Sequence record: MN850614.1
DNA: 64,000 nucleotides
Source of the DNA: Escherichia phage adrianh
Reading direction: 5' to 3' (one strand)
This document shows, in pieces, positions 43,902 through 57,946 of this stretch. A model generated the notes under the pieces. That model did no database searches, was not told the origin of the DNA, and saw nothing but the letters and a program-made list of their open reading frames with translations. The number at the start of each line of letters is the position of its first letter. Position 1 is the stretch's first letter. A program made the position numbers and the translations under genes.

Positions 43902-43925
43902 CATTAACTGGAAATTTAATCTGAT

Positions 43926-44525: not shown

Positions 44526-44529
44526 ATAG

Positions 44530-45328: not shown

Positions 45329-45601
45329 ATGTACACTACTAACAACGGTCGCACCTTAAACGTAACCCTACGCCACTACATGAACGGCGTAATGCACTTC
45401 GAGGATTTACAAGCCGAACAACATATCTTAGATTGGCAACTTGCAGGACTACAAAAAACTGCTACAGGATACGGGAAAAAGATTCCAACCAGTTGGAAAG
45501 TATACTACGAAGGCCGTTTGCGCAGAATTTATCAGGATGTGCAAAGCAATAGCGCATTGAGTTACATCATAGTAAAAGGTAAAAAGCTGCATTTAGTATA
45601 A
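45329..45601 (+). CDS. Hypothetical protein (small-gene array 6)
   Basis: 90 aa. Confidence 0.5.
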   Translation: MYTTNNGRTLNVTLRHYMNGVMHFEDLQAEQHILDWQLAGLQKTATGYGKKIPTSWKVYYEGRLRRIYQDVQSNSALSYIIVKGKKLHLV

Positions 45602-45687
45602 AGTACTTTACAAGGGGCTTATAGTTCGATAAAGTAAGCCCCAGATAAAGAGCTTTACCACTAAATCCTAAATTGGAGAACTTAAAA
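45601..45687 (+). promoter_or_regulatory. Type A cassette, copy 5
   Basis: Near-identical to copy 1. Confidence 0.55.
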
Positions 45688-46092
45688 ATGGCTATTAATA
45701 ATCGCGAGTTATCAATCTTAAAAGCACGTTTGACCGTTAACCGGATTAATGTTATTACGTCATCAGCACCGGACGAAACATTGCACAACATTATTGGGAA
45801 GATTCAAAGCGTTATCTTAGACGTTGAAAACGTAAAAAACTCATTGGCTGACGTTGCAGCAGGTATCACGCTAGACGGTGCACAATATGAAATGACCGAC
45901 ATGTTAGGCAAATCTAAGGTAATGAATAAAGAGCTTGATTTGAAAATGTTTCGGTTTGCTGTTAAAGTGTGGCTATCTGTCGAGTATGACGCTAACTTTG
46001 CAATCGCTGACTTTTTCGCCACTTGGTTACAACGTAATTTGACAAATCATGATTTTCGTGGTATCTGTGATGCAATTTATGCAGAACTCTAA
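45688..46092 (+). CDS. Hypothetical protein (small-gene array 7)
   Basis: Start set to ATG 45688 (the ORF track begins at a TTG inside the cassette). Confidence 0.5.
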   Translation: MAINNRELSILKARLTVNRINVITSSAPDETLHNIIGKIQSVILDVENVKNSLADVAAGITLDGAQYEMTDMLGKSKVMNKELDLKMFRFAVKVWLSVEYDANFAIADFFATWLQRNLTNHDFRGICDAIYAEL

Positions 46093-46098
46093 AAATTT

Positions 46099-46193
46099 AT
46101 CTTGATTTTGGTTTTTAAAACAAGTAAATTACTAATCAACGGGAGGTAATAGCCTCCCCACTAAACAAAGTCCTTAAACTAGGAGATTCAAAA
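46099..46193 (+). promoter_or_regulatory. Type B cassette, copy 2
   Basis: Same sequence as type B copy 1, including the upstream CTTGATTTTGGTTTTTAAAA. Confidence 0.55.
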
Positions 46194-46397
46194 ATGGCTA
46201 TTATTAACGGTTTAACCATTGAAACTACACACATCAAAGATATTAAAGTCGGTGATGTAGTTCTCTTTCACGGCGTAGAAAAAACCGTCACGGCGAAAGA
46301 TATTACAGAGGACTCCTTCATGGGTAGGTCACTCTTCGGTGATTCTTATTGCTTAGGTTACCGTGCAGTTTTAAAAGTTGTAAAAAATAACCGATAA
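46194..46397 (+). CDS. Hypothetical protein (small-gene array 8)
   Basis: 67 aa. Confidence 0.45.
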   Translation: MAIINGLTIETTHIKDIKVGDVVLFHGVEKTVTAKDITEDSFMGRSLFGDSYCLGYRAVLKVVKNNR

Positions 46398-46482
46398 AGT
46401 ACTTTACAAGGGGCTTATAGTTCGATAAAGTAAGCCCCAGATAAAGAGCTTTACCACTAAATCCTAAATTGGAGATTCTAAA
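46397..46482 (+). promoter_or_regulatory. Type A cassette, copy 6
   Basis: Near-identical to copy 1. Confidence 0.55.
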
Positions 46483-47025
46483 ATGAAATGCTTTCACGGT
46501 ACTACCCAAGAAAATTTCCTCAACCTGATTAATAACGGTGACAAGCCATCAGGTGCATGGAATTGTTCGGATATGGACGGCAATTTTTACGTGTACCCAG
46601 AAAATAAAATCTATGGCGACGATGAGGAAGAGATAATCTCTGAAGGTATCCAGCAAGCGTTAGGTAATGCCACTATTACGGCCGCTTTCCAGATGAAAAC
46701 CCAAAATATTGTTATCTTAGAACTTGATATCCCAGAGGATGACCTAAATGACGATTATTCTTGTGATAATATGTCTGGCGTAGCAAGTTTTACAGAATAC
46801 TTCGATTTAAATTGGATTAAAAAGGTTTACGTAACAGAGTTTAACGCTATGTATTCGCCTTTTTGTCTTCCTTCATTGGATAACCCAAATTTAAATTATC
46901 TTGATGAGTCTCTGGAGCTTCTTGCTAAAAGTGTCCAACAGTCGGACAGTATTCAGGTTTTTTGTGACATCATGGACACACTAACGGGAAACATCGCAGA
47001 AGAGGATTTAAAGAGCTTTTTCTAA
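46483..47025 (+). CDS. Hypothetical acidic protein (small-gene array 9)
   Basis: 180 aa. Confidence 0.55.
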   Translation: MKCFHGTTQENFLNLINNGDKPSGAWNCSDMDGNFYVYPENKIYGDDEEEIISEGIQQALGNATITAAFQMKTQNIVILELDIPEDDLNDDYSCDNMSGVASFTEYFDLNWIKKVYVTEFNAMYSPFCLPSLDNPNLNYLDESLELLAKSVQQSDSIQVFCDIMDTLTGNIAEEDLKSFF

Positions 47026-47057
47026 AAACCTATGCAATCACCTTATAAACACTGATT

Positions 47058-47078
47058 AGCCCCTCACAGGGGCTTTTA
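47058..47078 (+). terminator. Rho-independent terminator
   Basis: AGCCCCT-CACA-GGGGCT hairpin followed by TTTT. Confidence 0.55.
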
Positions 47079-47091
47079 AGAGGCTTAAATC

Positions 47092-47325
47092 ATGCTTACA
47101 ACCGTTTATCTTATCCTTTCTATTTGTAATGGTCATTCATGTGATTTTAAAGGGCTTGAGGAGTTTACAGGAAGTAAAGAAAATGCTGTTCAGGTCTGTC
47201 AGATAGCAAGGCAAGACTACCCCGCCAGTGATGACATACAATGTTACTTTAAGACAGAAGATGAAGATGGTATCTATTTCGATAGTGTAGACGGTCAATA
47301 TGAAATAATTATAGAAAAAGACTAG
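47092..47325 (+). CDS. Hypothetical protein (small-gene array 10)
   Basis: 77 aa; the one array gene without a cassette. Confidence 0.4.
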   Translation: MLTTVYLILSICNGHSCDFKGLEEFTGSKENAVQVCQIARQDYPASDDIQCYFKTEDEDGIYFDSVDGQYEIIIEKD

Positions 47326-47339
47326 ACAAGCCTGATAAA

Positions 47340-47415
47340 AATCTGTAAATTACTAATCAACGGGGAGGGAATGACCTTCCCCACTAAACAAAATCCTAAA
47401 CTGGAGATTCAAAAA
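47340..47415 (+). promoter_or_regulatory. Type B cassette, copy 3 (variant stem)
   Basis: GGGGAGGGAATGACCTTCCCC stem-loop variant; flanks conserved. Confidence 0.5.
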
Positions 47416-47757
47416 ATGGCTTATGTAACCGTAATTACTGATAAAGAGGGTTCATCTTGGTCAACTCAGGTTAGTGATAAGATGTCGCCTATGCAGTGCC
47501 TAAAATACTTTGAACAGTGGAACAAAGGCGAGGACACAAGCCCCTTTCAAGTGATGCAGATTATCCATGTAGACAATGAAGGGAAGAAAACGACTTTAAA
47601 CAGCGAGTTCTATGCAACCCGATTTGAAACGAGATGTAAAACGATGAAGTTATTACGTGAATCCGGTTATGCCCATATCGCCGCGTTAATCTGGGATGAC
47701 CTGCTAAAAAGTCAGCGTATCAGCTATGTAAAACCTGAAAAAATATTCATCAGTTAA
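47416..47757 (+). CDS. Hypothetical protein (small-gene array 11)
   Basis: Start set to ATG 47416 (MAYVTV) directly after the cassette. Confidence 0.5.
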   Translation: MAYVTVITDKEGSSWSTQVSDKMSPMQCLKYFEQWNKGEDTSPFQVMQIIHVDNEGKKTTLNSEFYATRFETRCKTMKLLRESGYAHIAALIWDDLLKSQRISYVKPEKIFIS

Positions 47758-47789
47758 TCAATAACTTACAAAAAACTTTCAAAAAAGTA

Positions 47790-47818
47790 TTGACAACGCC
47801 CCTTGACATTGGTAGATT
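47790..47818 (+). promoter_or_regulatory. Sigma70-like promoter
   Basis: TTGACA, 17-nt spacer, TAGATT. Confidence 0.45.
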
Positions 47819-47902
47819 TGTTCGAGGGGGTTTATCTAAAAGGGATTAACTTAAAAGATTCTTTATAGATAAACTTAAAAAATTGCTTGCAATCAGATAT
47901 CA

Positions 47903-47978
47903 AAACAAGTAAATTACTAATCAACGGGAGGTAATAGCCTCCCCACTAAACAAAGTCCTTAAACTAGGAGATTCAAAA
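47903..47978 (+). promoter_or_regulatory. Type B cassette, copy 4
   Basis: GGGAGGTAATAGCCTCCCC hairpin with conserved flanks. Confidence 0.55.
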
Positions 47979-48509
47979 ATGAACAAATTTCAAGCTATCA
48001 ACTACATTCGCTCAAATGCTGTAATGTCTAAGCCTGTTAAAGATACCTATGAATTTCGCTGCAATGGGGTACACTTTGCAACCATCACTAAATCAGAAAA
48101 CGGGGCTTATTACGTTCATCGTCGTAATGTTGCAACCGTTGTAGTCTCTCACTTTATGCAAGCTGTAGCAGAGTTATTACCGCTATTCTTAGGGATTTAC
48201 TTGGATGAGTGTAAAAACGTTCACAACCACGTTAAAAACCTTTTAAACGGTTATAAAATGGCTTATGAACGTTCTATCAAGTCCTTAAACAAGTTCTATA
48301 AAGCCCCTGTAAATACTGTTTCAATGGCCTACGCTGCAAATGGTGAAAGAGTAAACCTATCCGATGTGGAAGATATCGAGCTTTACGACCATCGGCCTAA
48401 CGGTTACTCTCAGACACTCGGTGAAGGTTTAACGTTCAATATCAAGAACTTAGAAAAAACTTTAAAAGATATTGAAAAAGATATTGACGAGACAATCAAA
48501 AATCTGTAA
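47979..48509 (+). CDS. Hypothetical protein (small-gene array 12)
   Basis: 176 aa. Confidence 0.55.
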   Translation: MNKFQAINYIRSNAVMSKPVKDTYEFRCNGVHFATITKSENGAYYVHRRNVATVVVSHFMQAVAELLPLFLGIYLDECKNVHNHVKNLLNGYKMAYERSIKSLNKFYKAPVNTVSMAYAANGERVNLSDVEDIELYDHRPNGYSQTLGEGLTFNIKNLEKTLKDIEKDIDETIKNL

Positions 48510-48573
48510 ATTACTAATCAACGGGAGGTAATAGCCTCCCCACTAAACAAAGTCCTAAACTGGAGTTATCAAG
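48500..48573 (+). promoter_or_regulatory. Type B cassette, copy 5
   Basis: Overlaps the stop of the upstream gene; hairpin conserved. Confidence 0.5.
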
Positions 48574-48837
48574 ATGGAAAACGTAGAATTAACCACACTT
48601 TTACAAATTGCAACCGACAAAGAAGATGTAGCATTATTCCACCGTATCGAAAGTGATTTGTTCAATGGTGAAATCATCAAAGAATCTTATGAAGTTGTCG
48701 GATTCAAAGATGGTAAAGCGTTTGGCTTTTTTGACCTCGACAAAGGCAACGCGGTTGCAAAATATGATGTTTTATCTTGTGAGATTCTTACAAAATACAA
48801 CGAAAAAAGGCTTGCAACATACGCCAACATGCAGTAA
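48574..48837 (+). CDS. Hypothetical protein (small-gene array 13)
   Basis: 87 aa. Confidence 0.5.
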   Translation: MENVELTTLLQIATDKEDVALFHRIESDLFNGEIIKESYEVVGFKDGKAFGFFDLDKGNAVAKYDVLSCEILTKYNEKRLATYANMQ

Positions 48838-48903
48838 ATTACTAATCAACGGGAGGCGACAACCTCCCCACTAAATAAAACCCTTAAACTAGGAGATTCA
48901 AAA
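48832..48903 (+). promoter_or_regulatory. Type B cassette, copy 6 (loop variant)
   Basis: Stem GGGAGG/CCTCCC kept while the loop changes to CGACAA. Confidence 0.5.
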
Positions 48904-49152
48904 ATGGCAACTATCCGCGCTACTGTTAACGAGTTCGGTTTTTCCTCTCTGGATGTTAAATTTGACATTGTAGGCACTGATAACGCCTTTGAAATGGTGA
49001 AAGGTCTTATCAGTCAGACCATCAAAGGCTATAATCCTTCTAAGGAGTTCTGGGAGGAAACAAAACAGGAAGTTCTTAAGGATGGTTACACTTATCACTA
49101 TTGGGGAGAAAAAATCGTCTCCCTGTACTACGACAAACAAGATTATAACTAA
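48904..49152 (+). CDS. Hypothetical protein (small-gene array 14)
   Basis: 82 aa. Confidence 0.5.
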   Translation: MATIRATVNEFGFSSLDVKFDIVGTDNAFEMVKGLISQTIKGYNPSKEFWEETKQEVLKDGYTYHYWGEKIVSLYYDKQDYN

Positions 49153-49191
49153 TCGGCGCAGCGGGGCTAAATAGCCCCAGATACCTTTACA

Positions 49192-49217
49192 GCCCCTTTC
49201 CCATAGGGGCTTTTTTA
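49192..49217 (+). terminator. Rho-independent terminator closing the plus-strand block
   Basis: GCCCCT-TTCCCAT-AGGGGC hairpin followed by TTTTTT. Confidence 0.65.
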
Positions 49218-49219
49218 CG

Positions 49220-50780
49220 TCTATCCAATCCTCATACAACCCCTTTCCCTTTCCTTTCCAGAATCTTATCAGACCTTAAAAAGCAATAACTTTACAGCCT
49301 TTTACTAAGTCAATTAATTGGCCTTATTAATAAGCCCTTAAACATAAGCCAATAACCCCAGAAAGGGGGCAACCCATTTAAACGCCATATAAAGCCCTAT
49401 AACGGCCTTTTTAACCTAACTTAAGGGATTGCATTACCTCACCCTTAAAAGCCCTTTATAAAGCTTCACAGAGCCTTAAAAGAATCTTATAAGGGTGTAA
49501 GCTTTATTATCTCGTTAGCTATCTTGTGAACTACTAAACAACCCCCTTGATAGTAACTGAAAAGTATGTTATAGGGGCTTTAAAGTTACTTTGAAGTATC
49601 TTAAGAGTTACGTAAATGCTAGCCCCCTTAACATTCTCTTAACAATTTCTTAACAATCCCTACATAGTTATGCTTTTAAGGCACTTGTTAGCAACTTGTT
49701 AGCCCCTTGTTAAATCTCTGTTAAGACCACGTAAAAGCCTTGTAAGAGTCTTTGACATAGCCTTTAAAGCTTCTGTAAAGCCTTATAAAGAGGTGTCTGT
49801 ACAGTTGGGGTGTAACTACTAGTGAGAGACTTAAAAGAGCTTACAAGGAGCTATAGAGAGCTTTTAAGAGGTATGTTTAAGGAATCACTAAGAAAGGAAA
49901 GGGAACGATAAGAAAAGAGTAGTGACCATGTTAATAGCTTGTTAAAAAGATTAAACACTTGTTAGAAACTTGTTAATTATCTTAACAAAATAACTCTTTA
50001 AAATTAACTTGTTAGCTCTTGTTAGTCATCTGTTAAGCCTCTGTAAAGACTATTCAGCACTTGTTAATTGGTATTGTTACCAATCCCTAGAAAACTGTTA
50101 AGCCCTTGTCAGTTCTGTTAAGAAACTGTTAAGACCTTTGAAGAGTTGTTAAGAAGATGTGAGAACTGTTAAGAGATTGTTAAGGATATTTTAAAATTTT
50201 GCAAAGGGGATGTTACAGGGATGTTAAGGGCTACCAAGCAGATATACATCCTCTACAGATATTTTTCAGTTCCTTCAAAGACCCTAAAAAAAAAATGACT
50301 TGACAGTCTTATTTTATAAAAATTTTAAAATTCTGAATAATTACCTAGACAGTCTTTTAAAAATACAGGTAGAAACAGGCTTATAAGATACCTTGTTAGT
50401 ACCGTGTTAGACCTTGTGAGATAAGGTCTGTGAAGATATTCCTGTTAAGTTTGTTAAAACAGCCTATATAGAGGCTTAGTAATACCTAGTGAACACCTAT
50501 AGAGGGTAACATAGCTAACCTAGAGATTAAGAGGTGTATAGGAGCTTCTAAGAGTGTGTAGAGAGATGGTTAAGGTGATTGTATAGGTTGTTAAGAAGGC
50601 TTGTTAGAAGAGTGTTTAGAAGGCTTGTTAGAGGGCTAGTTAGAAGGGTTATACAGAGGGGCTATTAAGACCACTAGATAGTTACTAAGATACTATATAG
50701 TACTATATAACTATATATAGAGAGTAAGATTAAGAAGGTTGTTAAGAAGGGTAGATATTTTATTCACATATGATGGTGAC
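49220..50780. repeat. ORF-free region dense in short direct repeats (iteron-like)
   Basis: No ORF of 60 aa or more on either strand over about 1.6 kb; 49220-49520 rich in AGCC(C/T)TTWWAA-type motifs; 49520-50700 carries more than 25 copies of YTGTTARG; AT-rich ACTATATA repeats at about 50690-50725. Confidence 0.6.
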
Positions 50781-50854
50781 CCAGAGGTTGGGACAACCGA
50801 TAAAATTTTATAAAAATTAAAAAGCCCCCCAATTAAGGAGGCTCTTAAGATATT

Positions 50855-51460
50855 TTAAATGAGTGTTTCCAGAACTGTCTTCAGTGATGACTTGGTTGTC
50901 TGATAAAAATGAGTGAAGCCATTGTTGTTATCAAACACCTGCATCATGATACCATCTCCCTTGATTGGGTACACTCGGATATCATAGTGAAACCCATTAA
51001 AGACAGCAGAACCACTACAGAATGAACTAAAATCATCTACTGAGATGTACTCTTCATGACCTGTGATTTTTATACAAACACCTTTACTCGGTCTCTTAGG
51101 GTTGATATCTTCCATCACAGACATATTCTGTCCACCAAGAGATACCATAGTGACCACTTTACGGTTCTTCTGTCTGAAGTACATTTTAACTTTCTGCAAG
51201 GTGTCTTCATAGAACGGATAAGACTTCTCTACAAAGATTCCTTCAAGTGGCTCTTTACCGTTTACAATACCTCTGGTATGTCGTACTGAGAAGATAAGTT
51301 GCTCTAGCAGGTCAAGGCTTTCTTCGGATAGTGCTTCCCTAATATCATTCCAATCAAGTACTAGGTAGTTACCTTCAACATCTTTTAAGTTATCTTTTTC
51401 CATATCTATCACACCATTATCGTAAAACTTGGTAAGCTGGGACTGCAAACTTGTTGCCAT
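50855..51460 (-). CDS. Hypothetical protein
   Basis: 201 aa, last gene of the minus-strand operon. Confidence 0.55.
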   Translation of the reverse strand: MATSLQSQLTKFYDNGVIDMEKDNLKDVEGNYLVLDWNDIREALSEESLDLLEQLIFSVRHTRGIVNGKEPLEGIFVEKSYPFYEDTLQKVKMYFRQKNRKVVTMVSLGGQNMSVMEDINPKRPSKGVCIKITGHEEYISVDDFSSFCSGSAVFNGFHYDIRVYPIKGDGIMMQVFDNNNGFTHFYQTTKSSLKTVLETLI

Positions 51461-51881
51461 TGTTCTTAATGAGGTCTTCTTCTGTTACTAAGAATGTAAT
51501 CCCACATAAGTGTGTGTAGTGGCTATCATACTCAAATATTTTAAGTAAGTATTTACCATCGTGATAAACAGATTCTACTACACCTTTTGCAACAATCTTT
51601 CCAGTCTTGAAATCTTTAAGAGGGTATACATTACCAACTTTAGGAACTGTTTTCATCTCAGATTCTTTTAGCTTCTCACCAGCTTCTACATCACCTAGTA
51701 AGTGAGAACTTTCAAACGCTACATATTGCATATAAGCCTCTGAGCATTCCCAGATAAAACAATGTACAAGAACCTTAGCAGCATGTCTTGAACAATTCAA
51801 CTTATCACAAATCTCTTTGTACATTTCGTCTTTAGTTGAGTTATCAAGCATTGCTTTTTGAACGACTTCTTTAATTTTCAT
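51417..51881 (-). CDS. Hypothetical protein
   Basis: 154 aa. Confidence 0.5.
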   Translation of the reverse strand: MKIKEVVQKAMLDNSTKDEMYKEICDKLNCSRHAAKVLVHCFIWECSEAYMQYVAFESSHLLGDVEAGEKLKESEMKTVPKVGNVYPLKDFKTGKIVAKGVVESVYHDGKYLLKIFEYDSHYTHLCGITFLVTEEDLIKNNGNKFAVPAYQVLR

Positions 51882-51933
51882 TTCGCTACCTTCTAAGTTT
51901 CTACAAAGGGGCTATCAAGTAACCCCTAAGTTA

Positions 51934-52158
51934 TTACTCAGACTTTTCAGTCTTCTTATCGGATTTCTTACTAGTCTTCTTCTCAGCTTTCTGCTCAGGT
52001 TCCTTCTCAGAAGTTGCCTTGATAACCATATCAAGAAGCTCTGATAAGTCACTCTTCAGCAAAGTAACAGGCTGCTCATTGTAGAAGTTTTTGTCAAGAT
52101 AGACTTTGAACTCTTCAATAGATGGAAATCCAAAAATTGGTACAGGTGTTTTAATCAT
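51934..52158 (-). CDS. Hypothetical small charged protein
   Basis: 74 aa with Lys/Glu-rich C-terminus. Confidence 0.4.
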   Translation of the reverse strand: MIKTPVPIFGFPSIEEFKVYLDKNFYNEQPVTLLKSDLSELLDMVIKATSEKEPEQKAEKKTSKKSDKKTEKSE

Positions 52159-52234
52159 TACTTAGTCTCTCCATAGGCATCTTTTAAGATTGCCTTGTTA
52201 ATCATTTCAGCTATTGCAAAACGAACACATACAG

Positions 52235-52768
52235 CTATAATTGTAGGTTGCATTCTTTACTTACCTCTTCAAGTTTAACCTCAGAGTCCTTAAGTCGTTT
52301 CTTATGAACTCTGAATCTTACTAGTGAGATGATAATACCAGCTAAAGGAACAGCATACAAGTACCAGATATCGTGTATCTTTGTAGTAATCTGTGTAATT
52401 GTCAAATCTTGAGCTATGCAGCTAATTGCTGATACTGCCAGTAACATCGCTAAGAAGAATGCCAGTACCATAACAATACTCAGGCAGCCTCTGGCATGGT
52501 GTTCATGCTTAATGCACTTATTCTTTTCGTCAACAACTCTGTTGTAGTCATTTGCAAAGTCTCTGTAGAAAGCTTTCAGGTATTCTTGAGTGTAGCCTTC
52601 AAAGCAACCTGTGCCATACCAATAATCACCACCAAAATGTGCTATGATACCGGTATCTCCATTTGGTTTCGTCACTCTTAAAGAAGTGTGATGGCGAGTA
52701 TCCTGAAAATCTATCTTGTATCTTTCTTCGTAAATCATTTTCCAACCCCTCTCAATCGTTTGTTCCAC
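52235..52768 (-). CDS. Membrane protein (two predicted TM helices)
   Basis: 177 aa; hydrophobic stretches LSIVMVLAFFLAMLLAVSAI and YLYAVPLAGIIISLV. Confidence 0.5.
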   Translation of the reverse strand: MEQTIERGWKMIYEERYKIDFQDTRHHTSLRVTKPNGDTGIIAHFGGDYWYGTGCFEGYTQEYLKAFYRDFANDYNRVVDEKNKCIKHEHHARGCLSIVMVLAFFLAMLLAVSAISCIAQDLTITQITTKIHDIWYLYAVPLAGIIISLVRFRVHKKRLKDSEVKLEEVSKECNLQL

Positions 52769-52953
52769 TCAAGGTCAACAAGTCTTTGCAGGACTTTCCC
52801 TCTAGGTGTTACGCCTTTTAAATCTGCATCATAGCAACGGTAAAAGTCACCCTCAGCGTGTTTACCGTAGCATTTTCTGATATTCTGGCTTCTACGATAC
52901 TGTTCTAACAGGGATAGTTTGTAGTAATCTTCAACTGTAGTTAACTTTTTCAT
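52735..52953 (-). CDS. Hypothetical protein
   Basis: 72 aa. Confidence 0.35.
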   Translation of the reverse strand: MKKLTTVEDYYKLSLLEQYRRSQNIRKCYGKHAEGDFYRCYDADLKGVTPRGKVLQRLVDLEWNKRLRGVGK

Positions 52954-53495
52954 TCTTTCACCATAGCGTTTCTGAACTGGCGTTGTGTTTCTCTTGTAAT
53001 TTCGTTTGGAGTAAACCCTGCTTTCAGCATATCTCTGAAAAGAACTTCTAAGTAATCTCGCTCAATAATGTAAATGGCATTCTTAGTAGATGCTTGAAGT
53101 TCTATTAAGTCACTACTAATCTCTTCGCACTTACTGGTAAGTTCTGTGTCAGTCTTCTTAAAAACTGGCATAGTATGTTTGTGGTGGCCTTTATTAGTCT
53201 CTACTAAAAACTCTAGAAAATCTTCAGAGTCCTTTAGAGCAATCCCTATAAAGTTTTTGTAAGCACCTGTGAAAGATAAGGAATCAATCTCAGCAGTTGA
53301 GTATACAGTCCCTGCACACAGTCTTGCAGAAGTACTAAATGTGTGGTTTGGTGTTGTGTCAAAGTCTAAGTTCTTCAGTGGTCGGAAATAAACTGTACCA
53401 TTGTGTGAGATGTGTGTTACAACAGCCTCAACACTCTTTGAAGGATTCTGTTTAACATACAAAATAATTTTATCGTGTTCTTTTACTTTAGCCAT
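52950..53495 (-). CDS. Hypothetical protein
   Basis: 181 aa. Confidence 0.5.
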   Translation of the reverse strand: MAKVKEHDKIILYVKQNPSKSVEAVVTHISHNGTVYFRPLKNLDFDTTPNHTFSTSARLCAGTVYSTAEIDSLSFTGAYKNFIGIALKDSEDFLEFLVETNKGHHKHTMPVFKKTDTELTSKCEEISSDLIELQASTKNAIYIIERDYLEVLFRDMLKAGFTPNEITRETQRQFRNAMVKE

Positions 53496-53567
53496 ATCTA
53501 CTCTCCAGAAACTAAAAAGGGAACTACCTCTCGATAGCTCCCATCATAATCAATATTGTATACTCGG

Positions 53568-54149
53568 TCAAGAGTATTTTTTAGGCAGTAATGCACTGCG
53601 TTTGTTACTCTCTTCACTCAATAGTGCAATGAAGTCATCACTTTTACCTTTCCACGGGCTGAATGAAGGGATATGTTCGCGGATAGCCTCAATCACTGTT
53701 TTAAGTGCTGTGTTCTTCATCCACCAGTCAGAATCTGCTGATGCCACCACGTAGTATCCACCGTCATCAGTTAAAATTGGCTCTGAAATACATGGTGAAA
53801 TTAAAGTGGTAATGATTGAACCATTGTTCATGTAATATGTGCGCTTCATAACTTTTTCAAGAAGTTTGTGAAGGTCACCAAACAGTGTTACAAGTTCTTT
53901 GTGGTCGATGTCTTTTTCGAGGCTTGCTCGGTACTTCAATAGTGCAGCATCAACCTCTCTGTCATTAAACTTGAAATATTGAACTTCATCAACAAGGCAA
54001 ACACTGATGTTGTTAACATTCATAGTCAGCTTGCAAACTTTTGCAGGGGAGTTGATGCTTGGTTGAAAAAGTGCAACACACCCTTCAATATTTCCAAAGT
54101 GTTGTACAAGTGTTACTTGTGGAATGATATCCTGTTGCTCTTCGGACAT
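53568..54149 (-). CDS. Hypothetical protein
   Basis: 193 aa. Confidence 0.5.
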   Translation of the reverse strand: MSEEQQDIIPQVTLVQHFGNIEGCVALFQPSINSPAKVCKLTMNVNNISVCLVDEVQYFKFNDREVDAALLKYRASLEKDIDHKELVTLFGDLHKLLEKVMKRTYYMNNGSIITTLISPCISEPILTDDGGYYVVASADSDWWMKNTALKTVIEAIREHIPSFSPWKGKSDDFIALLSEESNKRSALLPKKYS

Positions 54150-54493
54150 TACAGTTTCCTCATTAAATACTTTTTAAGTTGTGTGTTAGGTTTCTCAAAA
54201 ACTTCTATAGAAGATATCTTGACAGCTTCACCACGCATACCTGTATGTTTGAATATATAATACTCTAACATTCCTATGTACTTTGCTGGTAAATCATATT
54301 TGACATACACCGTCACAGAATCTTCAAATTCGACAACCTTTGTACCATCTTTGTAGTTAAACTCTTTAGGATGGTTGTAGTTGTCTATGTCGTACATTAA
54401 AAAGAGTCTTTTACGTTGTAAGTCAAGCTTATTTGTTAAAGACTCTTTGATATCTGAGAAGTTTTTGTACACTGTGACATGGAGCTTACTCAT
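54149..54493 (-). CDS. Hypothetical protein
   Basis: 114 aa; start overlaps the downstream gene. Confidence 0.5.
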   Translation of the reverse strand: MSKLHVTVYKNFSDIKESLTNKLDLQRKRLFLMYDIDNYNHPKEFNYKDGTKVVEFEDSVTVYVKYDLPAKYIGMLEYYIFKHTGMRGEAVKISSIEVFEKPNTQLKKYLMRKL

Positions 54494-54779
54494 CGTTAAA
54501 CTCTCTGACGAAGAAATAGTTGACTTTGTTATTACCTACCATAAGGTCAAAGCAGGTATTCTCAAAAGGTTTGTTGTAGGCATCATATGAAACATATGGG
54601 TCAGCTACTTGCTTAGTGCTTAACTTCTTACTTGATGGGTTTAAGAGGCCACCATACAGCTTCTTGATAGACTCTTCTACAACAGACCAGATGATTTCGT
54701 CAGTAATTTCTTCGTACAGGTCAAGTTCACGCTCTAGTGAGAAGTCACAAATAGGGAAAATAACCTGTACTTTACTCAT
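54486..54779 (-). CDS. Hypothetical protein
   Basis: 97 aa. Confidence 0.45.
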   Translation of the reverse strand: MSKVQVIFPICDFSLERELDLYEEITDEIIWSVVEESIKKLYGGLLNPSSKKLSTKQVADPYVSYDAYNKPFENTCFDLMVGNNKVNYFFVREFNDE

Positions 54780-55174
54780 TAGCGAATGACCTGTGTTACC
54801 TGAATAGCTTCAGTTACTGACAAATCACCAACCGTTTCTTCTTTGACGAAGGTGAAGGTAAGTTCAACAGGCTCTTGTTCTTCCTGCTCAACCGGAATAC
54901 CGTTAAGCTCATCAAAGATTGATTGAGTTGTCCAGTCTTCTCCACCATCTGGGTAGTGGATTGCGTAAAGTGGAAACTCTAAATTATACCAAGCAAAAAC
55001 AGGGCAACCATCTGCATCATCTCGACATCTGTGGAGATATGTGTTTGTACCTTCAAAATGCAAATGGAGATTACCATTCTTCTCAAATAGAAGAGCATCT
55101 TGCAGGTCTAGTTCCTCATTTTCGCTGTAACGGCTGACATCAACCTTAACATGGATATGACTGTTATTATTCAT
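54779..55174 (-). CDS. Hypothetical acidic protein
   Basis: 131 aa. Confidence 0.5.
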   Translation of the reverse strand: MNNNSHIHVKVDVSRYSENEELDLQDALLFEKNGNLHLHFEGTNTYLHRCRDDADGCPVFAWYNLEFPLYAIHYPDGGEDWTTQSIFDELNGIPVEQEEQEPVELTFTFVKEETVGDLSVTEAIQVTQVIR

Positions 55175-55565
55175 AAAAACCTCTCTCTGCTTGTTCGATT
55201 TTTGCTCTTAAAATTTCGCAATGTTGTAAATGGTAGTTAGCTTCTTGTTCATGTGTTGCTAACTGCCTTTCAAGAACAGTTTTATAATAACCTGCAAGTT
55301 GCTCTTTTGTCAACGGGTGTTCTGAAATAATATCGAGTCCACTTTCGCCAAGAGGGTTGAATTGTCCATGCTCATTGACATTGTAAGTCTCAAACTTGAA
55401 CAGGCCATTGTTCACAGACTCAATAGGTGACAGTTCAACAAGCTCTACAGTAAACCGTGTATACACCTTGTCGCCTCTTGAAACCACATTGTTTCCGACA
55501 ATGCGTACAAGCGAACCATTGCGAGTGTACTTAAAAGTCCCAAAGTCACTAGCCCAAAGCTTCAT
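55167..55565 (-). CDS. Hypothetical protein
   Basis: 132 aa. Confidence 0.5.
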   Translation of the reverse strand: MKLWASDFGTFKYTRNGSLVRIVGNNVVSRGDKVYTRFTVELVELSPIESVNNGLFKFETYNVNEHGQFNPLGESGLDIISEHPLTKEQLAGYYKTVLERQLATHEQEANYHLQHCEILRAKIEQAERGFYE

Positions 55566-55583
55566 AGTTTTCTCCTTAGAAAA

Positions 55584-55607
55584 TAAAAAAGGCTCCCGAA
55601 GGAGCCT
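55584..55607 (-). terminator. Rho-independent terminator (minus strand)
   Basis: GGCTCC-CGAA-GGAGCC hairpin; T-run follows on the minus strand. Confidence 0.65.
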
Positions 55608-55616
55608 ATGAAGATA

Positions 55617-56081
55617 TTACTTTGGATATACACTGTCAAGATAAATGTCAGCTTCCATTCTACGTCTGTTTTTCAGACCGTTTGATGTGACCTTCTTACC
55701 TTTGACTGTAACCTTGTTCCACCACTGCATAGCTTCTGCGCAACCTACCTTATTACCAGCATTGTGGCGCTTGATAAATGTAGAATCCTGCATAGCTGTG
55801 ATGCCGATGTTGTATGTTTCACTTACAAGTGCATCAAACTCGTTCTGAGAAGTTGGAACCTTGATAGCTTTGTTCACTGCTGTAACAAACTTTTCAACAT
55901 CTGCGAGAAGATAATGTTCAGCTTGTTCAGCAGTAATTATCATACCCATCTTAACAGGTTTTCCGTCAATACGGATTGTACCATACCCGATTGTAGGGAT
56001 TCCGGCAGAGTCTTCGTAAGCCTCTAACTTCAGACCTTCAAAGAACTTAATAGCTTCTAAACCTTTTCTTGAGAGTTGCAT
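55617..56081 (-). CDS. Phage lysozyme (GH24 muramidase, endolysin)
   Basis: 154 aa; FEGLKLEAYEDSAGIPTIGYG resembles the T4/lambda lysozyme catalytic region. Confidence 0.8.
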   Translation of the reverse strand: MQLSRKGLEAIKFFEGLKLEAYEDSAGIPTIGYGTIRIDGKPVKMGMIITAEQAEHYLLADVEKFVTAVNKAIKVPTSQNEFDALVSETYNIGITAMQDSTFIKRHNAGNKVGCAEAMQWWNKVTVKGKKVTSNGLKNRRRMEADIYLDSVYPK

Positions 56082-56713
56082 TATGCCTCCCCTGCTGGGT
56101 TAACTGTAACTGTTGCCGCATTAGATGTTACAGAGCCACCTGCGCCAGTCACTACACAGGTGTAGCTTCCTGCATCAGCAGCGGTTGCACCTTCTTTGGT
56201 GTAAGTTGCAGCAGTTGCGTCTGGGATGACTTCCTCACCTTTCTTCCACTGATAACCTGTCGCACCTGTTGCCACAACATTCAGTGTTAAGGTCTCACCT
56301 TCAGTGATTTCTTGATTGGTTGGTTGCTGAGTGATTGATGGTGGCTTGATAGCATCCTTCAACTTAGCATTCAACATTGAGAACGGTTTAACTCTTGCCA
56401 GCCATTCACAATAAACTGTATCAACGTCTTTACCATTGATAATTGCATATTGTAAGTCCATGAAGAAGTCAGACGTTCTCATTTGAGCACCAACGCTGTA
56501 AAGCAACTCATCACTAAATGGAACTTTGTAGTCTGGTTTGTAGTCAAACTTCTTAACTTCTGCAATATCAGCTTCAGGCCAATACGAACTATAGGTAAGT
56601 GGTAAAATAGCCTCTTGATATGTTCTAAAATCATATCTCTTACCAGCCTTTACGTTCGCAACGAAGCCCTTCACAAACTCTTTGAAGTCTGGGTAAGTCT
56701 TTGCTTTAATCAT
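56081..56713 (-). CDS. Protein with C-terminal Ig-like domain
   Basis: 210 aa; C-terminal Thr/Gly/Ala-rich beta-strand-like region (TLTLNVVATGATGYQW ... YTCVVTGAGG); N-terminal part paralogous to the next ORF. Confidence 0.5.
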   Translation of the reverse strand: MIKAKTYPDFKEFVKGFVANVKAGKRYDFRTYQEAILPLTYSSYWPEADIAEVKKFDYKPDYKVPFSDELLYSVGAQMRTSDFFMDLQYAIINGKDVDTVYCEWLARVKPFSMLNAKLKDAIKPPSITQQPTNQEITEGETLTLNVVATGATGYQWKKGEEVIPDATAATYTKEGATAADAGSYTCVVTGAGGSVTSNAATVTVNPAGEA

Positions 56714-57081
56714 TTCTTTTTAGCCTCTAAATGTGCGTTTAGTCTAAAATAACCTTTGTGATGCGGAGATACATCACCAACAACAATACCTTTAACCTTA
56801 TAGCCTTTACCAATTACATACTGGATATCCATAAGGAATCTTCCAAGTCCAACAATATGGAACATTGGATATAATAGGTTCTCAGAATCTGGAATATTGA
56901 TTTCAGGTTTGTAGGTACGCTGTTCGATTGTTGGTGTAATATCTTCTTCAGGCCATTTGCTGAGTCTCCATGTCAAAGGTGTTGGGATAACATCATTAAG
57001 GTTGTACCTTTCACCATTTTGCACGGAATTGATATAGGATTGTAGGAAGCAATAAAAGTCTTTTGCACTCTTAGCTTTCAT
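56710..57081 (-). CDS. Paralog of the N-terminal domain of the 56081-56713 protein
   Basis: 123 aa; shared KAK..(D)F..F...(Y/F)...V..G.RY and FLMD(L/I)QY(A/V)I. Confidence 0.5.
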   Translation of the reverse strand: MKAKSAKDFYCFLQSYINSVQNGERYNLNDVIPTPLTWRLSKWPEEDITPTIEQRTYKPEINIPDSENLLYPMFHIVGLGRFLMDIQYVIGKGYKVKGIVVGDVSPHHKGYFRLNAHLEAKKK

Positions 57082-57128
57082 TAAGTATCCTTATAAATAG
57101 TTAAAGGGGCATCAGCCCCTATTCACAC

Positions 57129-57719
57129 TTAAGCTTTGGTCTTAAGTAGGTTCTTAAGTTTTTTAAGATTCATACTCTCATCAAACTTAAAACCAAATCC
57201 ATTGACATAATCAATGAACTCGGATTTCTTACTGAGTGACAATGCGTAACTCATATCAAAGTTCTTACTTATTTCTGCGTCTGGACTAGAGTTCACATCA
57301 AATGAAATTTCTGTAGGCTCTTGCTTACTTTTTCTCATATTATCAACCAGCAAACATGTATAGTTTGCTGGATAGAAATTTACACTACCATCAACGTAGC
57401 TGTACTTATTATTATGAATAAGGTTGGAAAATACCTTAAGGAATGTTTCTGAGTCGTGGCAAACAAGTTTGAATTGGCTGCTCTCTCCAAGCGCAACTAA
57501 TGAGTACGGACTTTCACTATCAAAGTCATAATTTGGATTCGATGCCGTCACTGTTACACGCATCAAGTTATTAGCAATAGTCTTCTGTTTAAAAGAATTT
57601 TGAACATAGTGAAGACCCCTCTCACACTGATTGACTAGCTCTTTAAGTAGGTCATTTGCATATGGTGAGTTAATTGATACAGAGCCATCACTATTGTAAT
57701 TAAAACTTACTGTTAACAT
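57129..57719 (-). CDS. Hypothetical protein
   Basis: 196 aa. Confidence 0.5.
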   Translation of the reverse strand: MLTVSFNYNSDGSVSINSPYANDLLKELVNQCERGLHYVQNSFKQKTIANNLMRVTVTASNPNYDFDSESPYSLVALGESSQFKLVCHDSETFLKVFSNLIHNNKYSYVDGSVNFYPANYTCLLVDNMRKSKQEPTEISFDVNSSPDAEISKNFDMSYALSLSKKSEFIDYVNGFGFKFDESMNLKKLKNLLKTKA

Positions 57720-57946
57720 TTTTCAGTTCTCCTGCGATTTATAATTTTGCTGCAATAGAGAAACGAAGTAAACTCACTGGAAGAAACCACTAAGTGTTGT
57801 TCACTAGATTGAGCCATTGCCCTGAAATACATTCCAGTCAAAGCATCATAGTGACTATTCTTTCCAATTGAGGTTATATAGCCATGACTCTTTGCAGTTT
57901 GATATAAATCTATAATATCTGCGATTTCTAATTGGGAACTACACAT
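57713..57946 (-). CDS. Hypothetical protein
   Basis: 77 aa. Confidence 0.4.
   Translation of the reverse strand: MCSSQLEIADIIDLYQTAKSHGYITSIGKNSHYDALTGMYFRAMAQSSEQHLVVSSSEFTSFLYCSKIINRRRTEKC

What the first reader, a model, noticed from the sequence alone, without database searches (positions are those of the whole stretch)
50855..55565. Eleven translationally coupled ORFs of unknown function on the minus strand
ORFs at 50855-55565 are packed with overlapping or abutting stops and starts (for example 54149/54149, 54486-54493, 54779/54779, 55167-55174) and are bracketed by the repeat region and a terminator. I recognise none of the products; one is a two-helix membrane protein (52235-52768). 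The coupling suggests a co-functional module.
Basis: partly seen in the sequence, partly recalled or inferred. Interest (0 to 1): 0.55.

Follow-up and report, generated by a model that had tools for sequence, protein, structure and literature searches.

The report
Felix O1 hypothetical gene block
This is the already annotated run of small non-virion "hypothetical" genes (ORF24-ORF34) downstream of the endolysin in a Felix O1-like phage; it is not one co-functional module, but one member, ORF30, behaves as an essential orphan gene in a close relative and is worth following up.

Summary
The window is a Felixounavirus. Region 50855-55565 (minus strand) corresponds to Felix O1 ORF24-ORF34 (about 93.5% nucleotide identity). 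Three corrections apply. There are 12 genes, because a conserved 31-aa ORF lies at 52158-52253. Three junctions are real gaps carrying conserved hairpins, two of them fused to sigma-70-like promoters. The packing is no tighter than elsewhere in the window (Fisher p = 0.19).

No product matched Pfam, NCBIfam or PADLOC significantly, each falls in an 'unknown function' PHROG, and PDB sequence searches of four products found nothing credible. AlphaFold models of ORF30 and ORF34 gave no informative fold match.

Published data on relatives show that none is a virion protein. Knockout effects differ widely. The ORF30 homologue scores like an essential gene, ORF34 is moderately important, and ORF25-28 are dispensable. 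ORF29, ORF25, ORF34 and ORF31 are each missing from some relatives.

Only ORF32 and ORF30 co-occur in all seven lineages examined. In an Erwinia phage, ORF32-31-30 sits at a different locus.

Verdict: ordinary and already known as a block, and the single-module reading is not supported. My preferred but unproven idea is that ORF30, with ORF32, is a late assembly helper, and that ORF29-24 is a changeable accessory tail.

The parts
55611..55639 (-). Sigma-70-like promoter candidate 'P34': TTGACA, 17-nt spacer, TATCTT, ending 3 nt before the t35 hairpin.
   Evidence: (10 of 12 consensus positions) and sequence. The -10-like TAnnTT hexamer is kept as TATCTT, TAGATT or TAAATT in four lineages. The -35 lies inside the endolysin coding sequence, so its conservation is confounded by coding constraint. 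No transcription start site has been mapped.
55582..55607 (-). Intrinsic terminator after the endolysin gene (Felix O1 t35): AGGCTCC-TTCG-GGAGCCT followed by a T-run.
   Evidence: Listed as t35 in PMC3185647. Conserved in Mooglevirus, Suspvirus and L015 and annotated as a terminator in Michonne.
55167..55565 (-). ORF34 (132 aa; Felix01p068; Bas63 g122; SUSP1 agp123).
54779..55174 (-). ORF33 (131 aa, pI 4.3, net charge about -19; Felix01p066). Labelled 'D-alanyl-D-alanine carboxypeptidase' in many GenBank records.
   Evidence: No Pfam family at E up to 1, so the carboxypeptidase label is unsupported. The Bas63 g121 knockout is variable, from 0.09 to -1.7.
54486..54779 (-). ORF32 (97 aa, acidic; Felix01p064). 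Found upstream of ORF30 in every lineage examined.
   Evidence: Homologues in L015 (6e-26), L013 (6.5e-20) and L016 (6.8e-5), and the Erwinia phage F132 links to the L015 homologue at 5.6e-6. These E-values are against very small local databases.
54149..54493 (-). ORF31 (114 aa, basic; Felix01p062).
   Evidence: Erwinia phage homologue F131 at E 9e-8. Absent from L013. The Bas63 g119 knockout is near neutral.
53568..54149 (-). ORF30 (193 aa; Felix01p060; Bas63 g118; SUSP1 agp119). Essential-like orphan protein.
   Evidence: The Bas63 knockout scores -2.7 to -2.9 in MG1655 and -1.3 to -1.6 in S17. Only 15 relatives exist among 1.84 billion representative proteins. No Pfam match. The AlphaFold model (pLDDT 66.7) has no fold match. 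Family-wide conserved residues are G110, W142, W143, F163, P165, W166 and D171. All seven CRISPRi-ART guides against the SUSP1 homologue are depleted only under infection.
53543..53571 (-). Sigma-70-like promoter candidate 'P29': TTGACC, 17-nt spacer, TATGAT. It overlaps the ORF30 stop codon and directly abuts the t29 hairpin.
   Evidence: Both hexamers are conserved in three genera while the spacer sequence and length (17-18 nt) vary. No transcription start site has been mapped.
53510..53542 (-). Intrinsic terminator between ORF30 and ORF29 (Felix O1 t29).
   Evidence: and t29 in PMC3185647. The stem shows compensatory changes between genera: GGGAGCTATC/GGTAGTTCCC against GGGGCTAC/GTAGTCCC.
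52950..53495 (-). ORF29 (181 aa; Felix01p057). Dispensable and variable.
   Evidence: Absent from Si3, bumzen, LinBro and Bas63, and only 30-37% identical in other genera. dN/dS is 0.25-0.33.
52735..52953 (-). ORF28 (72 aa, pI 9.7; Felix01p056).
   Evidence: The Bas63 g117 knockout is neutral to positive. Not detected in L013 or L015.
52235..52738 (-). ORF27 (167 aa from ATG 52738; the maximal ORF extends to GTG 52768). Membrane protein with an N-terminal soluble domain of about 84 aa, two TM helices and a charged C-terminal tail.
   Evidence: The Bas63 g116 knockout scores +0.8 to +1.1 in MG1655 and slightly negative in S17-1. Homologues in L013 and L015.
52158..52253 (-). Unlisted 31-aa ORF (MQPTIIAVCVRFAIAEMINKAILKDAYGETK) bridging ORF27 and ORF26.
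   Evidence: phrog_6279 at 2.7e-23. Annotated in six relatives, for example bas63_0115.
51934..52158 (-). ORF26 (74 aa, Lys/Glu-rich C-terminal tail; Felix01p052).
   Evidence: Homologues follow the ORF27 homologue in L013 and L015. Bas63 g114 is reported as more important in S17-1.
51907..51927 (-). Conserved GGGG(N8-11)CCCC hairpin in the ORF26/ORF25 gap. Possibly a weak terminator or RNA-processing site.
   Evidence: Sequence. Present with a different loop in Mooglevirus and Suspvirus. It was not picked up by the terminator scan because the loop exceeds 8 nt and the T-run is poor.
51417..51881 (-). ORF25 (154 aa; Felix01p051). Dispensable.
   Evidence: Absent from Si3 and bumzen. The Bas63 g113 knockout is about 0. 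Its N-terminal 50 aa also match phrog_9565.
50855..51460 (-). ORF24 (201 aa from ATG 51460, or 182 aa from ATG 51403; Felix01p050).
   Evidence: The conserved core starts near residue 27. The Bas63 g112 knockout scores -0.45 to -0.84 in S17.
50820..50846 (-). Terminal intrinsic terminator of the leftward transcription unit.
   Evidence: 11 base pairs. A terminator is present at the equivalent place in all genera examined, with different stems, and is annotated in Michonne.

Best explanation
The region is the distal part of the leftward 'genes 40 to 24' transcription unit of a Felix O1-like myovirus. It holds twelve genuine, small, non-virion protein genes that do not form a single machine.

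Shown directly:
- The block divides into three segments: ORF34-33-32-31-30, then ORF29-28-27-(31-aa ORF)-26, then ORF25-24. The segments are separated by conserved hairpins.
- Two of these hairpins (t35 and t29) are each preceded, within 0-3 nt, by a conserved sigma-70-like promoter.

Inferred: each terminator stops transcription arriving from upstream, while a transcript starting at the fused promoter would begin inside the 5' arm of the hairpin and so escape termination. Each segment could then be expressed on its own schedule.

Function, all inferred:
(a) The conserved core is ORF30, always accompanied by ORF32 and usually by ORF31 and ORF33. In Bas63, ORF30 behaves as essential. In Felix O1 its transcript peaks late, together with structural genes. 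It is absent from virions and lacks conserved catalytic-type residues. I therefore favour a late morphogenesis or assembly helper. The most specific guess is a chaperone for the two T4-gp37-like tail fibres. I put about 0.3 on this specific role.
(b) ORF29 to ORF24 form a changeable accessory tail of individually dispensable host-interaction genes, including one membrane protein. I put about 0.5 on this.
For: Identity and annotation: 93.5% nucleotide identity to Felix O1 13600-19174, with one-to-one correspondence to ORF24-34.

Real genes: dN/dS is 0.00-0.37.

Segmentation: terminator-like hairpins match the published t35 and t29. Promoter hexamers are conserved while spacers vary, and the stems show compensatory changes across genera. 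The same composite recurs at 5 of about 25 hairpins in the window, against a 1.4% background.

Non-virion: the Felix O1 virion proteome lists gp23 and gp36 but none of gp24-34. The Bas63 cryo-EM study finds only the Hoc-like Ig protein encoded outside the structural module.

Different fitness effects: Bas63 g118 (ORF30) scores -2.7 to -2.9, g122 (ORF34) about -0.9, and g116/g117 score positive.

Gene flux: ORF29 and ORF25 are absent from close relatives and radambza has an extra gene. L013 lacks ORF34 and ORF31 and carries Gad1 (PF25705, 2.7e-65) and a phosphoesterase in the downstream slot.

Core linkage: ORF32 and ORF30 occur together in Felixounavirus, Mooglevirus, Suspvirus, L013, L015, L016 and Kolesnikvirus. 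In the Erwinia phage the ORF32-31-30 trio sits between the polynucleotide kinase and spanin genes rather than after the endolysin.

Assembly-helper idea: in Felix O1, ORF30 is in the 'late, 60 min' RT-PCR class together with ORFs 36, 53, 63, 64, 72, 73, 76 and 77. Its family-wide conserved residues are Trp, Phe, Pro and Gly. Among the 123 SUSP1 genes in the part of the CRISPRi-ART table I read, the two extreme negative scores are the ORF30 homologue (-4.81) and the tail-fibre gene agp026 (-4.59). Both Bas63 fibres have T4-gp37-like tips and no chaperone is named for them. T4 gp37 needs the non-virion chaperones gp38 and gp57A (established T4 biology, from my own knowledge).
Against: No sequence or fold similarity links ORF30 to any known chaperone, and the ORF30 model is only moderately confident (pLDDT 66.7).

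Knockouts of either Bas63 fibre gene alone are milder (g26 about -1.1 to -1.5, g27 about -0.4 to -0.8 in MG1655) than the g118 knockout.

RT-PCR timing within the ORF34-30 segment is inconsistent: ORF31 early, ORF32-34 middle, ORF30 late.

No transcription start sites are mapped, so the promoters remain predictions.

All phenotype data come from relatives, not this phage. Bas63 is a close relative in the same genus, and SUSP1-type homologues are about 72% identical.

For the accessory tail, no gene in this window matches a known counter-defence family.
Confidence: 0.6

Rival explanations
1. Lysis-control cluster. Because the genes follow the endolysin, the block (or ORF30 and ORF27 in particular) sets the timing of lysis. 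ORF27 would act as a holin or antiholin-like membrane protein. ORF30 would restrain premature killing of the infected cell.
For: The block lies next to the endolysin at 55617-56081 (PF00959, 4.8e-40). ORF27 has two TM helices and a charged C-terminal tail. The sign of the two screens fits premature cell death: the knockout is very bad for the phage, yet all seven knockdown guides make infected host cells disappear faster. PhageMaP reports g116 as more needed in S17-1.
Against: A conserved terminator separates the endolysin from ORF34. The spanins are at 40107-40617 on the other strand, and holin candidates are annotated elsewhere in Bas63, SUSP1 and Moogle. The ORF27 knockout is neutral to advantageous. 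ORF27 has an atypical 84-aa N-terminal domain and no holin Pfam match. I saw no hydrophobic or signal-like segment in the ORF30 sequence, though I did not run a predictor on it. In the Erwinia phage the trio lies next to a spanin gene but three genes (about 1.4 kb) downstream of the gene annotated as a transglycosylase.
Confidence: 0.15
2. Counter-defence or host-takeover island. Most or all of the 12 small proteins, several of them strongly acidic or basic, neutralise host defence systems or host factors.
For: The ORF29-24 part gains and loses genes. A distant relative carries Gad1 and a phosphoesterase in the equivalent slot. ORF33 (pI 4.3) and ORF32 (pI 4.5) are small and acidic, like DNA-mimic proteins. 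Bas63 g114 and g116 show host-dependent importance. The neighbouring DUF2828/Ro60-like gene is a reported counter-defence gene.
Against: ORF30 behaves as essential in all laboratory hosts tested, including the control strains of the defence panel, which does not fit a conditional counter-defence gene. The ORF34-30 segment is strongly conserved in content and order. No block gene is named among validated counters or triggers in the PhageMaP text. No gene in the window matches Gad1 or another known family.
Confidence: 0.15
3. One reading: all eleven (twelve) ORFs form one translationally coupled, co-functional module, for example the subunits of one complex.
For: Seven or eight of the eleven junctions between the twelve ORFs overlap. 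Order and gene lengths are conserved across three genera. All are non-virion and of unknown function.
Against: The packing is no tighter than in the rest of the window (p = 0.19). Three gaps carry conserved hairpins, and two carry promoter-like sites. Fitness effects range from -2.9 to +1.1. ORF29, ORF25, ORF34, ORF31 and ORF28 are each missing from some relatives. A knockout in ORF31 is near neutral although the coupled downstream ORF30 is essential-like, so coupling does not appear obligatory (this is an inference, because the behaviour of the barcode insert is not known in detail).
Confidence: 0.05

Closest known systems
Felix O1 ORF24-ORF34 (Felix01p050-p068) and their orthologues (Bas63 g112-g122, SUSP1 agp112-agp123, Michonne gp119-gp132)
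   Same: Same genes in the same order, with about 93.5% nucleotide identity to Felix O1. Terminators t29 and t35 are the same, as are the flanking endolysin and Hoc-like gene.
   Different: Felix O1 does not annotate the 31-aa ORF. This window carries ORF29 and ORF25, which some relatives lack. The neighbouring Hoc-like protein is shorter here (210 aa).
T4 tail-fibre assembly chaperones gp38 and gp57A (a functional analogy for ORF30 only)
   Same: Non-virion, late-expressed, required for infectious progeny, and no enzymatic motif. The host phage has gp37-like fibre tips. T4 biology is from my own knowledge.
   Different: No sequence or fold similarity. [quoted passage not shown] No interaction data exist. 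The link rests on essentiality, timing and a shared but uninterpreted CRISPRi-ART signature.
Antiholins and lysis-timing regulators (T4 RI, P1 LydB) and class II holins
   Same: Close to the endolysin. ORF27 has a two-TM topology with a charged C-terminal tail. The ORF30 knockdown accelerates loss of infected cells.
   Different: A terminator separates the block from the endolysin. The ORF27 knockout is neutral. ORF30 shows no obvious membrane segment by inspection. Holin and spanin genes are annotated elsewhere. There is no homology.
Phage accessory or counter-defence gene islands (for example loci carrying Gad1)
   Same: Small genes with gain and loss between close relatives, individually dispensable. 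Gad1 sits at the equivalent position in relative L013.
   Different: No gene in this window belongs to a known counter-defence family. The ORF34-30 segment is conserved and contains an essential-like gene.

Membership tests
Felix O1-like (Ounavirinae) ORF24-34 gene block | High nucleotide identity and one-to-one synteny with Felix O1 13600-19174 | tested here: met
   93.5% identity over 100% of the query. 197 phage records cover at least 80% of it. The feature table matches ORF by ORF.
Felix O1-like (Ounavirinae) ORF24-34 gene block | Same flanking landmarks: endolysin and Ig-domain gene upstream, terminator and non-coding repeat region downstream | tested here: met
   PF00959 endolysin and Ig-domain protein. 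Terminator and repeats. Same layout in Michonne, EcSzw_1, Sf13, Bas63 and SUSP1.
D-alanyl-D-alanine carboxypeptidase (GenBank label on ORF33 homologues) | Peptidase S11, S13 or M15 (VanY) catalytic domain detectable by profile search | tested here: not met
   No Pfam family at E up to 1 and no NCBIfam family at E up to 0.1 for ORF33. PDB search gave only chance-level hits.
Holin (considered for ORF27) | At least one TM helix and a charged C-terminal tail | tested here: met
   Hydropathy shows two TM segments and a Lys/Arg/Glu-rich tail.
Holin (considered for ORF27) | Membership of a known holin family, and a requirement for lysis or phage fitness | tested here: not met
   No holin Pfam or PHROG annotation. 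The Bas63 g116 knockout scores +0.8 to +1.1 in MG1655. That is published data on a homologue, not this phage.
Two-component spanin (considered for ORF27 plus the overlapping 31-aa ORF) | An i-spanin with an N-terminal TM helix and periplasmic coiled coil, and an o-spanin with a lipoprotein signal and lipobox Cys | tested here: not met
   ORF27 has an 84-aa N-terminal soluble domain before its TM helices. The 31-aa ORF has no charged n-region and no standard lipobox (inspection of the sequence). The real spanin pair is at 40107-40454 and 40348-40617, where the i-spanin is 100% identical to bas63_0089 and the o-spanin has LIIMSGC.
Translationally coupled operon | Stop and start codons overlapping or abutting at successive junctions | tested here: inconclusive
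   This holds at 7-8 of the 11 junctions between the 12 ORFs. Three gaps of 51-72 nt break the series, and the frequency does not differ from the rest of the window.
Translationally coupled operon | Translation of the downstream gene depends on translation of the upstream gene | not testable with these tools
   Indirect hint against obligatory coupling: the Bas63 g119 knockout is near neutral although the downstream g118 is essential-like. ORF30 has its own GAGGA Shine-Dalgarno sequence.
Known counter-defence proteins (for example Gad1) | Profile match to a described counter-defence family | tested here: not met
   No Pfam match, including PF25705, for any block protein. Gad1 is found only in relative L013. 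PADLOC models defence systems rather than counter-defence proteins, and it gave nothing.
Tail-fibre assembly chaperone (considered for ORF30) | Homology to a known chaperone family (T4 gp38 or gp57A, lambda Tfa / Caudo_TAP) | tested here: not met
Tail-fibre assembly chaperone (considered for ORF30) | Non-virion, late, and required for infectious progeny | tested here: met
   All from the literature on homologues: absent from the Felix O1 proteome and the Bas63 virion model, in the late RT-PCR class, and with an essential-like knockout.
Tail-fibre assembly chaperone (considered for ORF30) | Physical or genetic interaction with the fibre protein; mutants make fibreless particles | not testable with these tools
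   The only hint is a shared extreme negative CRISPRi-ART score with the fibre gene agp026, which the authors did not interpret.

The most novel reading that the evidence does not exclude
ORF30, with its constant partner ORF32 and usually ORF31, is a previously unrecognised essential, non-virion module specific to Ounavirinae, with no detectable fold relatives. It could be a new class of assembly chaperone for T4-gp37-like fibre tips, or a factor that keeps the infected cell alive until assembly is complete. Separately, the terminator hairpins fused to promoters may be a general way for Felix O1-like phages to partition a long same-strand gene array into independently timed units.
Probability: 0.3. 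Interest if true: 0.55.

Novelty: already known. Interest (0 to 1): 0.3.

Why it matters
As a block, this is ordinary phage 'dark matter' that has been annotated since 2010 and already covered by two genome-wide screens, so it changes little. Three narrower points have value.

First, ORF30 is a well-defined essential orphan. It has only 15 relatives among 1.84 billion representative proteins, no fold match, and opposite-looking signals in two published screens. That makes it a good target for working out an unknown step in the Felix O1 life cycle. Felix O1-type phages are widely used for Salmonella typing and biocontrol.

Second, the widespread 'D-alanyl-D-alanine carboxypeptidase' label on ORF33 homologues is unsupported and should be dropped.

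Third, the conserved promoter-on-terminator composites bear on a question the Felix O1 genome paper left open: how transcription proceeds past its many terminators.

Tried and rejected
- Pfam, NCBIfam, PADLOC and PHROGs scans of the block's proteins (each library covered 10-12 of the 12). Only sub-threshold noise and 'unknown function' PHROGs came back.
- PDB sequence searches for ORF24, 29, 30 and 33. Nothing credible was found. The ORF24 match to CsoS2 (8.5e-4) covers about 30 residues and no stretch passes on its own, so I treat it as chance.
- Deep homology for ORF30 and ORF34. Both families are narrow and confined to phages of this group. The distant ORF30 relatives also carry no Pfam domain.
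- Lysis-cassette reading. I made it a minor rival once the spanins and holin candidates were located elsewhere and the ORF27 knockout proved neutral.
- The 31-aa ORF as an o-spanin: rejected, because it has no lipoprotein signal.
- Paralogy within the block or window: none found.
- Rfam search of 48000-58500: no hits.
- The search for related loci with the ORF30 family alignment failed because no stretch was conserved enough. Two of three single-protein scans found nothing.
- The SUSP1 genes validated by CRISPRi-ART (gp010, gp024, gp089) are not in this block.
- The third homologous-protein search was not used.

Full report
**Identity of the region.** The window is a Felix O1-like myovirus (genus Felixounavirus, subfamily Ounavirinae). 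Region 50500-56100 is 93.5% identical to Felix O1 13600-19174 and up to 94.8% identical to other members. 197 phage records cover at least 80% of it. The eleven ORFs correspond one-to-one to Felix O1 ORF24-ORF34 (Felix01p050-p068), nearly all annotated 'hypothetical protein'. Upstream on the same strand lie the endolysin (55617-56081; PF00959, E 4.8e-40) and an Ig-domain protein (56081-56713). Downstream lie a terminator and a non-coding repeat region.

**Check of the observation.** ORF34/33 and ORF32/31 overlap by 8 nt. ORF33/32 and ORF31/30 overlap by 1 nt. ORF29/28 and ORF28/27 have ATGA overlaps, provided ORF27 starts at ATG 52738, which has a strong Shine-Dalgarno sequence.

A twelfth gene was missed. 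This is a 31-aa ORF at 52158-52253 with its own Shine-Dalgarno sequence. It overlaps ORF27 by 19 nt and ORF26 by 1 nt. It is 100% conserved in protein sequence within the genus and 68-76% across genera, with dN/dS of 0.00-0.22. It matches phrog_6279 at 2.7e-23 and is annotated in six relatives.

All twelve ORFs are under purifying selection. The ORF24 start is ambiguous. Its conserved core begins near residue 27, and relatives lacking ORF25 use the downstream start.

The coupling is not continuous. Gaps of 51, 72 and 52 nt precede ORF34, ORF29 and ORF25. Overlap is also not unusual in this genome. Six of 11 block junctions overlap or abut, against 27 of 81 elsewhere in the window (Fisher p = 0.19).

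**Transcriptional anatomy.** Terminator-like hairpins lie at 55607-55590, 53542-53519 and 50846-50820. The first two are the published Felix O1 terminators t35 and t29.

Each of these two is preceded by a sigma-70-like promoter. TTGACA-17-TATCTT ends 3 nt before the t35 hairpin, and TTGACC-17-TATGAT directly abuts the t29 hairpin. Across Felixounavirus, Mooglevirus, Suspvirus and a metagenomic relative, the hexamers are kept while spacer sequence and length vary. The stems show compensatory substitutions.

A transcript starting 6-8 nt after these -10 elements would begin inside the 5' arm of the hairpin and could not form the terminator. This is an inference, and no start sites have been mapped. 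The same composite occurs at 5 of about 25 terminator-like hairpins in the window, against a 1.4% positional background. The ORF26/ORF25 gap holds a conserved GGGG(N8-11)CCCC hairpin. The block is therefore at least two, and probably three, transcription units.

**Attempts to recognise the products.**
- No product had a significant match in Pfam, NCBIfam or PADLOC among those scanned, and each of the twelve falls in its own 'unknown function' PHROG.
- The 'D-alanyl-D-alanine carboxypeptidase' label carried by ORF33 homologues in many records has no support. ORF33 matched no Pfam family even at E up to 1.
- PDB sequence searches with ORF24, 29, 30 and 33 gave nothing credible.
- ORF30 has 18 close relatives in the 5.8-billion-protein collection. 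A profile search of all 1.84 billion representatives found only 15 proteins, all in phrog_4109 and without Pfam domains.
- Residues conserved across the whole ORF30 family are G110, W142, W143, F163, P165, W166 and D171, which do not look like a catalytic set.
- ORF27 has two TM segments, an 84-aa N-terminal soluble domain and a charged C-terminal tail.
- The block genes have no paralogues in the window, and there are no Rfam hits.

**Published evidence on homologues.**
- The Felix O1 genome paper (PMC3185647) describes genes 40 to 24 as one of four 'transcriptons' and lists t29 and t35. By RT-PCR, ORFs 24, 25, 26, 28, 29, 32, 33 and 34 peak at 25 min, ORF31 at 5 min and ORF30 at 60 min. The virion proteome contains gp23 and gp36 but none of gp24-34.
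- The Bas63 cryo-EM study (PMC12609058) finds at least 23 virion gene products. Only one, the Hoc-like Ig protein (g124, Felix gp36), is encoded outside the structural module.
- PhageMaP (bioRxiv 10.1101/2024.10.10.617714) made barcoded knockouts across Bas63. I mapped g112-g122 to ORF24, 25, 26, the 31-aa ORF, 27, 28, 30, 31, 32, 33 and 34. Bas63 lacks ORF29.
- PhageMaP fitness values: g118 (ORF30) scores -2.7 to -2.9 in MG1655 and -1.3 to -1.6 in S17, in the range of DNA polymerase and capsid genes. g122 (ORF34) scores -0.9 to -1.3. g120 and g121 are mild or variable. g119 is near neutral. g116 and g117 are positive in MG1655. g113 and g114 are about 0 in S17. g112 scores -0.45 to -0.84 in S17.
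- The PhageMaP authors note that g114 and g116 matter more in the tra-positive host S17-1.
- CRISPRi-ART on SUSP1 (PMC11879866) calls agp112-agp123 'Not Fit'. However, all seven guides against agp119 (the ORF30 homologue) are depleted by log2 -2.2 to -7.9 in the infected arm and sit near 0 in the three other replicate columns, which I take to be the MOI 0 arm; the column headers were not visible in the passages I read.
- At gene level, within the 123 SUSP1 genes I could read (the table part ends at agp123), the two extremes are agp119 (-4.81) and the tail-fibre gene agp026 (-4.59). The next lowest is -2.83. The authors state that they did not interpret negative scores.

**Comparative genomics.**
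- All twelve genes are present in Felixounavirus, Mooglevirus and Suspvirus at 30-76% protein identity.
- ORF29 is missing from Si3, bumzen, LinBro and Bas63. ORF25 is missing from Si3 and bumzen. Radambza and Michonne carry extra genes.
- In the metagenomic relative L015 the order is lysin-34-33-32-31-30-27-26.
- In L013 the order is lysin-33-32-30-(119 aa)-27-26. Further downstream it has a phosphoesterase and a bona fide Gad1 (PF25705, 2.7e-65).
- In a more distant IMG/VR phage (L016), the lysozyme is followed by an ORF32-like gene, two small genes, the ORF30 homologue, a small gene, a two-TM protein and then non-coding DNA.
- In the Erwinia phage FIfi106 (Kolesnikvirus), homologues of ORF32, ORF31 and ORF30 (97, 121 and 188 aa, abutting) lie between the polynucleotide kinase and spanin genes instead of after the endolysin.
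- ORF32 and ORF30 are therefore the only constant pair, and the trio has moved as a unit at least once. The E-values for the most distant ORF32 links come from very small local databases and are supported mainly by position, equal length and a shared N-terminal motif.

**Interpretation.** The block is an ordinary, already annotated stretch of phage genes of unknown function. It is not a single co-functional module. Fitness effects, conservation and transcriptional organisation all differ within it.

The best-supported picture has two parts. The first is a conserved core segment (ORF34-30) whose key member ORF30 is essential-like. The second is a changeable accessory tail (ORF29-24) of individually dispensable genes. 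A relative carries a known counter-defence gene at the equivalent position.

For ORF30 I favour a late assembly-helper role, at about 0.3. The grounds are its late timing, its essentiality, its absence from virions, its non-catalytic conserved surface, and the CRISPRi-ART signature it shares with the tail-fibre gene. In addition, both Bas63 fibres have T4-gp37-like tips and no chaperone has been named for them. T4 gp37 needs dedicated non-virion chaperones (my own knowledge of T4 biology).

A lysis-timing role is the main rival. It would also explain why loss of ORF30 is bad for the phage yet speeds the disappearance of infected cells. Against it, the spanins and holin candidates lie elsewhere and a conserved terminator separates the endolysin from the block.

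**Limits.** All phenotype, timing and proteome data come from relatives, not from this phage. The promoters are predictions. The ORF30 model is only moderately confident. The tail-fibre link rests on scores that the original authors chose not to interpret.

Noticed in passing
window 25900-25915 (+), 33790-33811 (+), 40064-40085 (+), 55609-55588 (-), 53545-53516 (-): A recurrent composite in which a sigma-70-like -35/-10 pair ends 0-6 nt before an intrinsic-terminator hairpin. A transcript initiating there would start inside the hairpin. It occurs at 5 of about 25 hairpins, against a 1.4% positional background, and the two in the block are conserved across genera. It may explain how Felix O1 transcribes past its many terminators.
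   Followed up: partly
window 49250-50850: A 1.6-kb non-coding region packed with degenerate TGTTAAG-type repeats at roughly 11-nt spacing in both orientations. Relatives annotate it only as 'repeat_region'. It could be iteron-like or a regulator-binding array.
   Followed up: no
window 56081-56713 and 56710-57081 (-): The 'tail protein' (Felix gp36 homologue) corresponds to the Hoc-like capsid hexamer decoration protein resolved in Bas63. Here it is only 210 aa, consistent with a single Ig domain, against 294 aa in Felix O1 and 460 aa in Bas63. The gene just upstream is a paralogue of its N-terminal capsid-binding domain (E 1.7e-14).
   Followed up: partly
window 54779-55174 (-) and many GenBank records: The 'D-alanyl-D-alanine carboxypeptidase' annotation on ORF33 homologues, which PhageMaP also adopted for Bas63 g121, has no profile support. 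It appears to be a propagated annotation error.
   Followed up: yes
SUSP1 NC_028808 agp119 and agp026 (homologue of window 53568-54149): In the CRISPRi-ART data, guides against the ORF30 homologue and the tail-fibre gene are strongly depleted under infection (gene scores -4.81 and -4.59). For agp119 this holds for 7 of 7 guides. The authors did not interpret negative scores.
   Followed up: partly
L013 9993-10994 and 8947-9492: A distant metagenomic relative carries a bona fide Gad1 anti-Gabija gene (PF25705, 2.7e-65) and a calcineurin-like phosphoesterase in the variable stretch downstream of its ORF30, ORF27 and ORF26 homologues.
   Followed up: partly
window 58792-60207 (+): This DUF2828/DUF7788 (Ro60-like) protein is the homologue of Bas63 gp130, which PhageMaP reports as a counter to a host defence system (named ppl in some passages and hhe in the Discussion).
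   Followed up: no
GU169904.1 (Staphylococcus phage SA1) 136724-142323: A record labelled as a 147-kb Staphylococcus phage contains this Felix O1-like block at 93% identity. This suggests a chimeric or contaminated assembly.
   Followed up: no
window 48497-48559 and 48825-48887 (+): Two copies (81% identical) of a 63-nt element containing a GGGAGG...CCTCCC hairpin, lying downstream of plus-strand genes. They may be repeated regulatory or terminator-like elements.
   Followed up: no
window 42500-48600 (+): Plus-strand small genes here are separated by strikingly regular gaps of about 85-100 nt, unlike the overlapping genes of the block. This suggests one regulatory element per gene.
   Followed up: no
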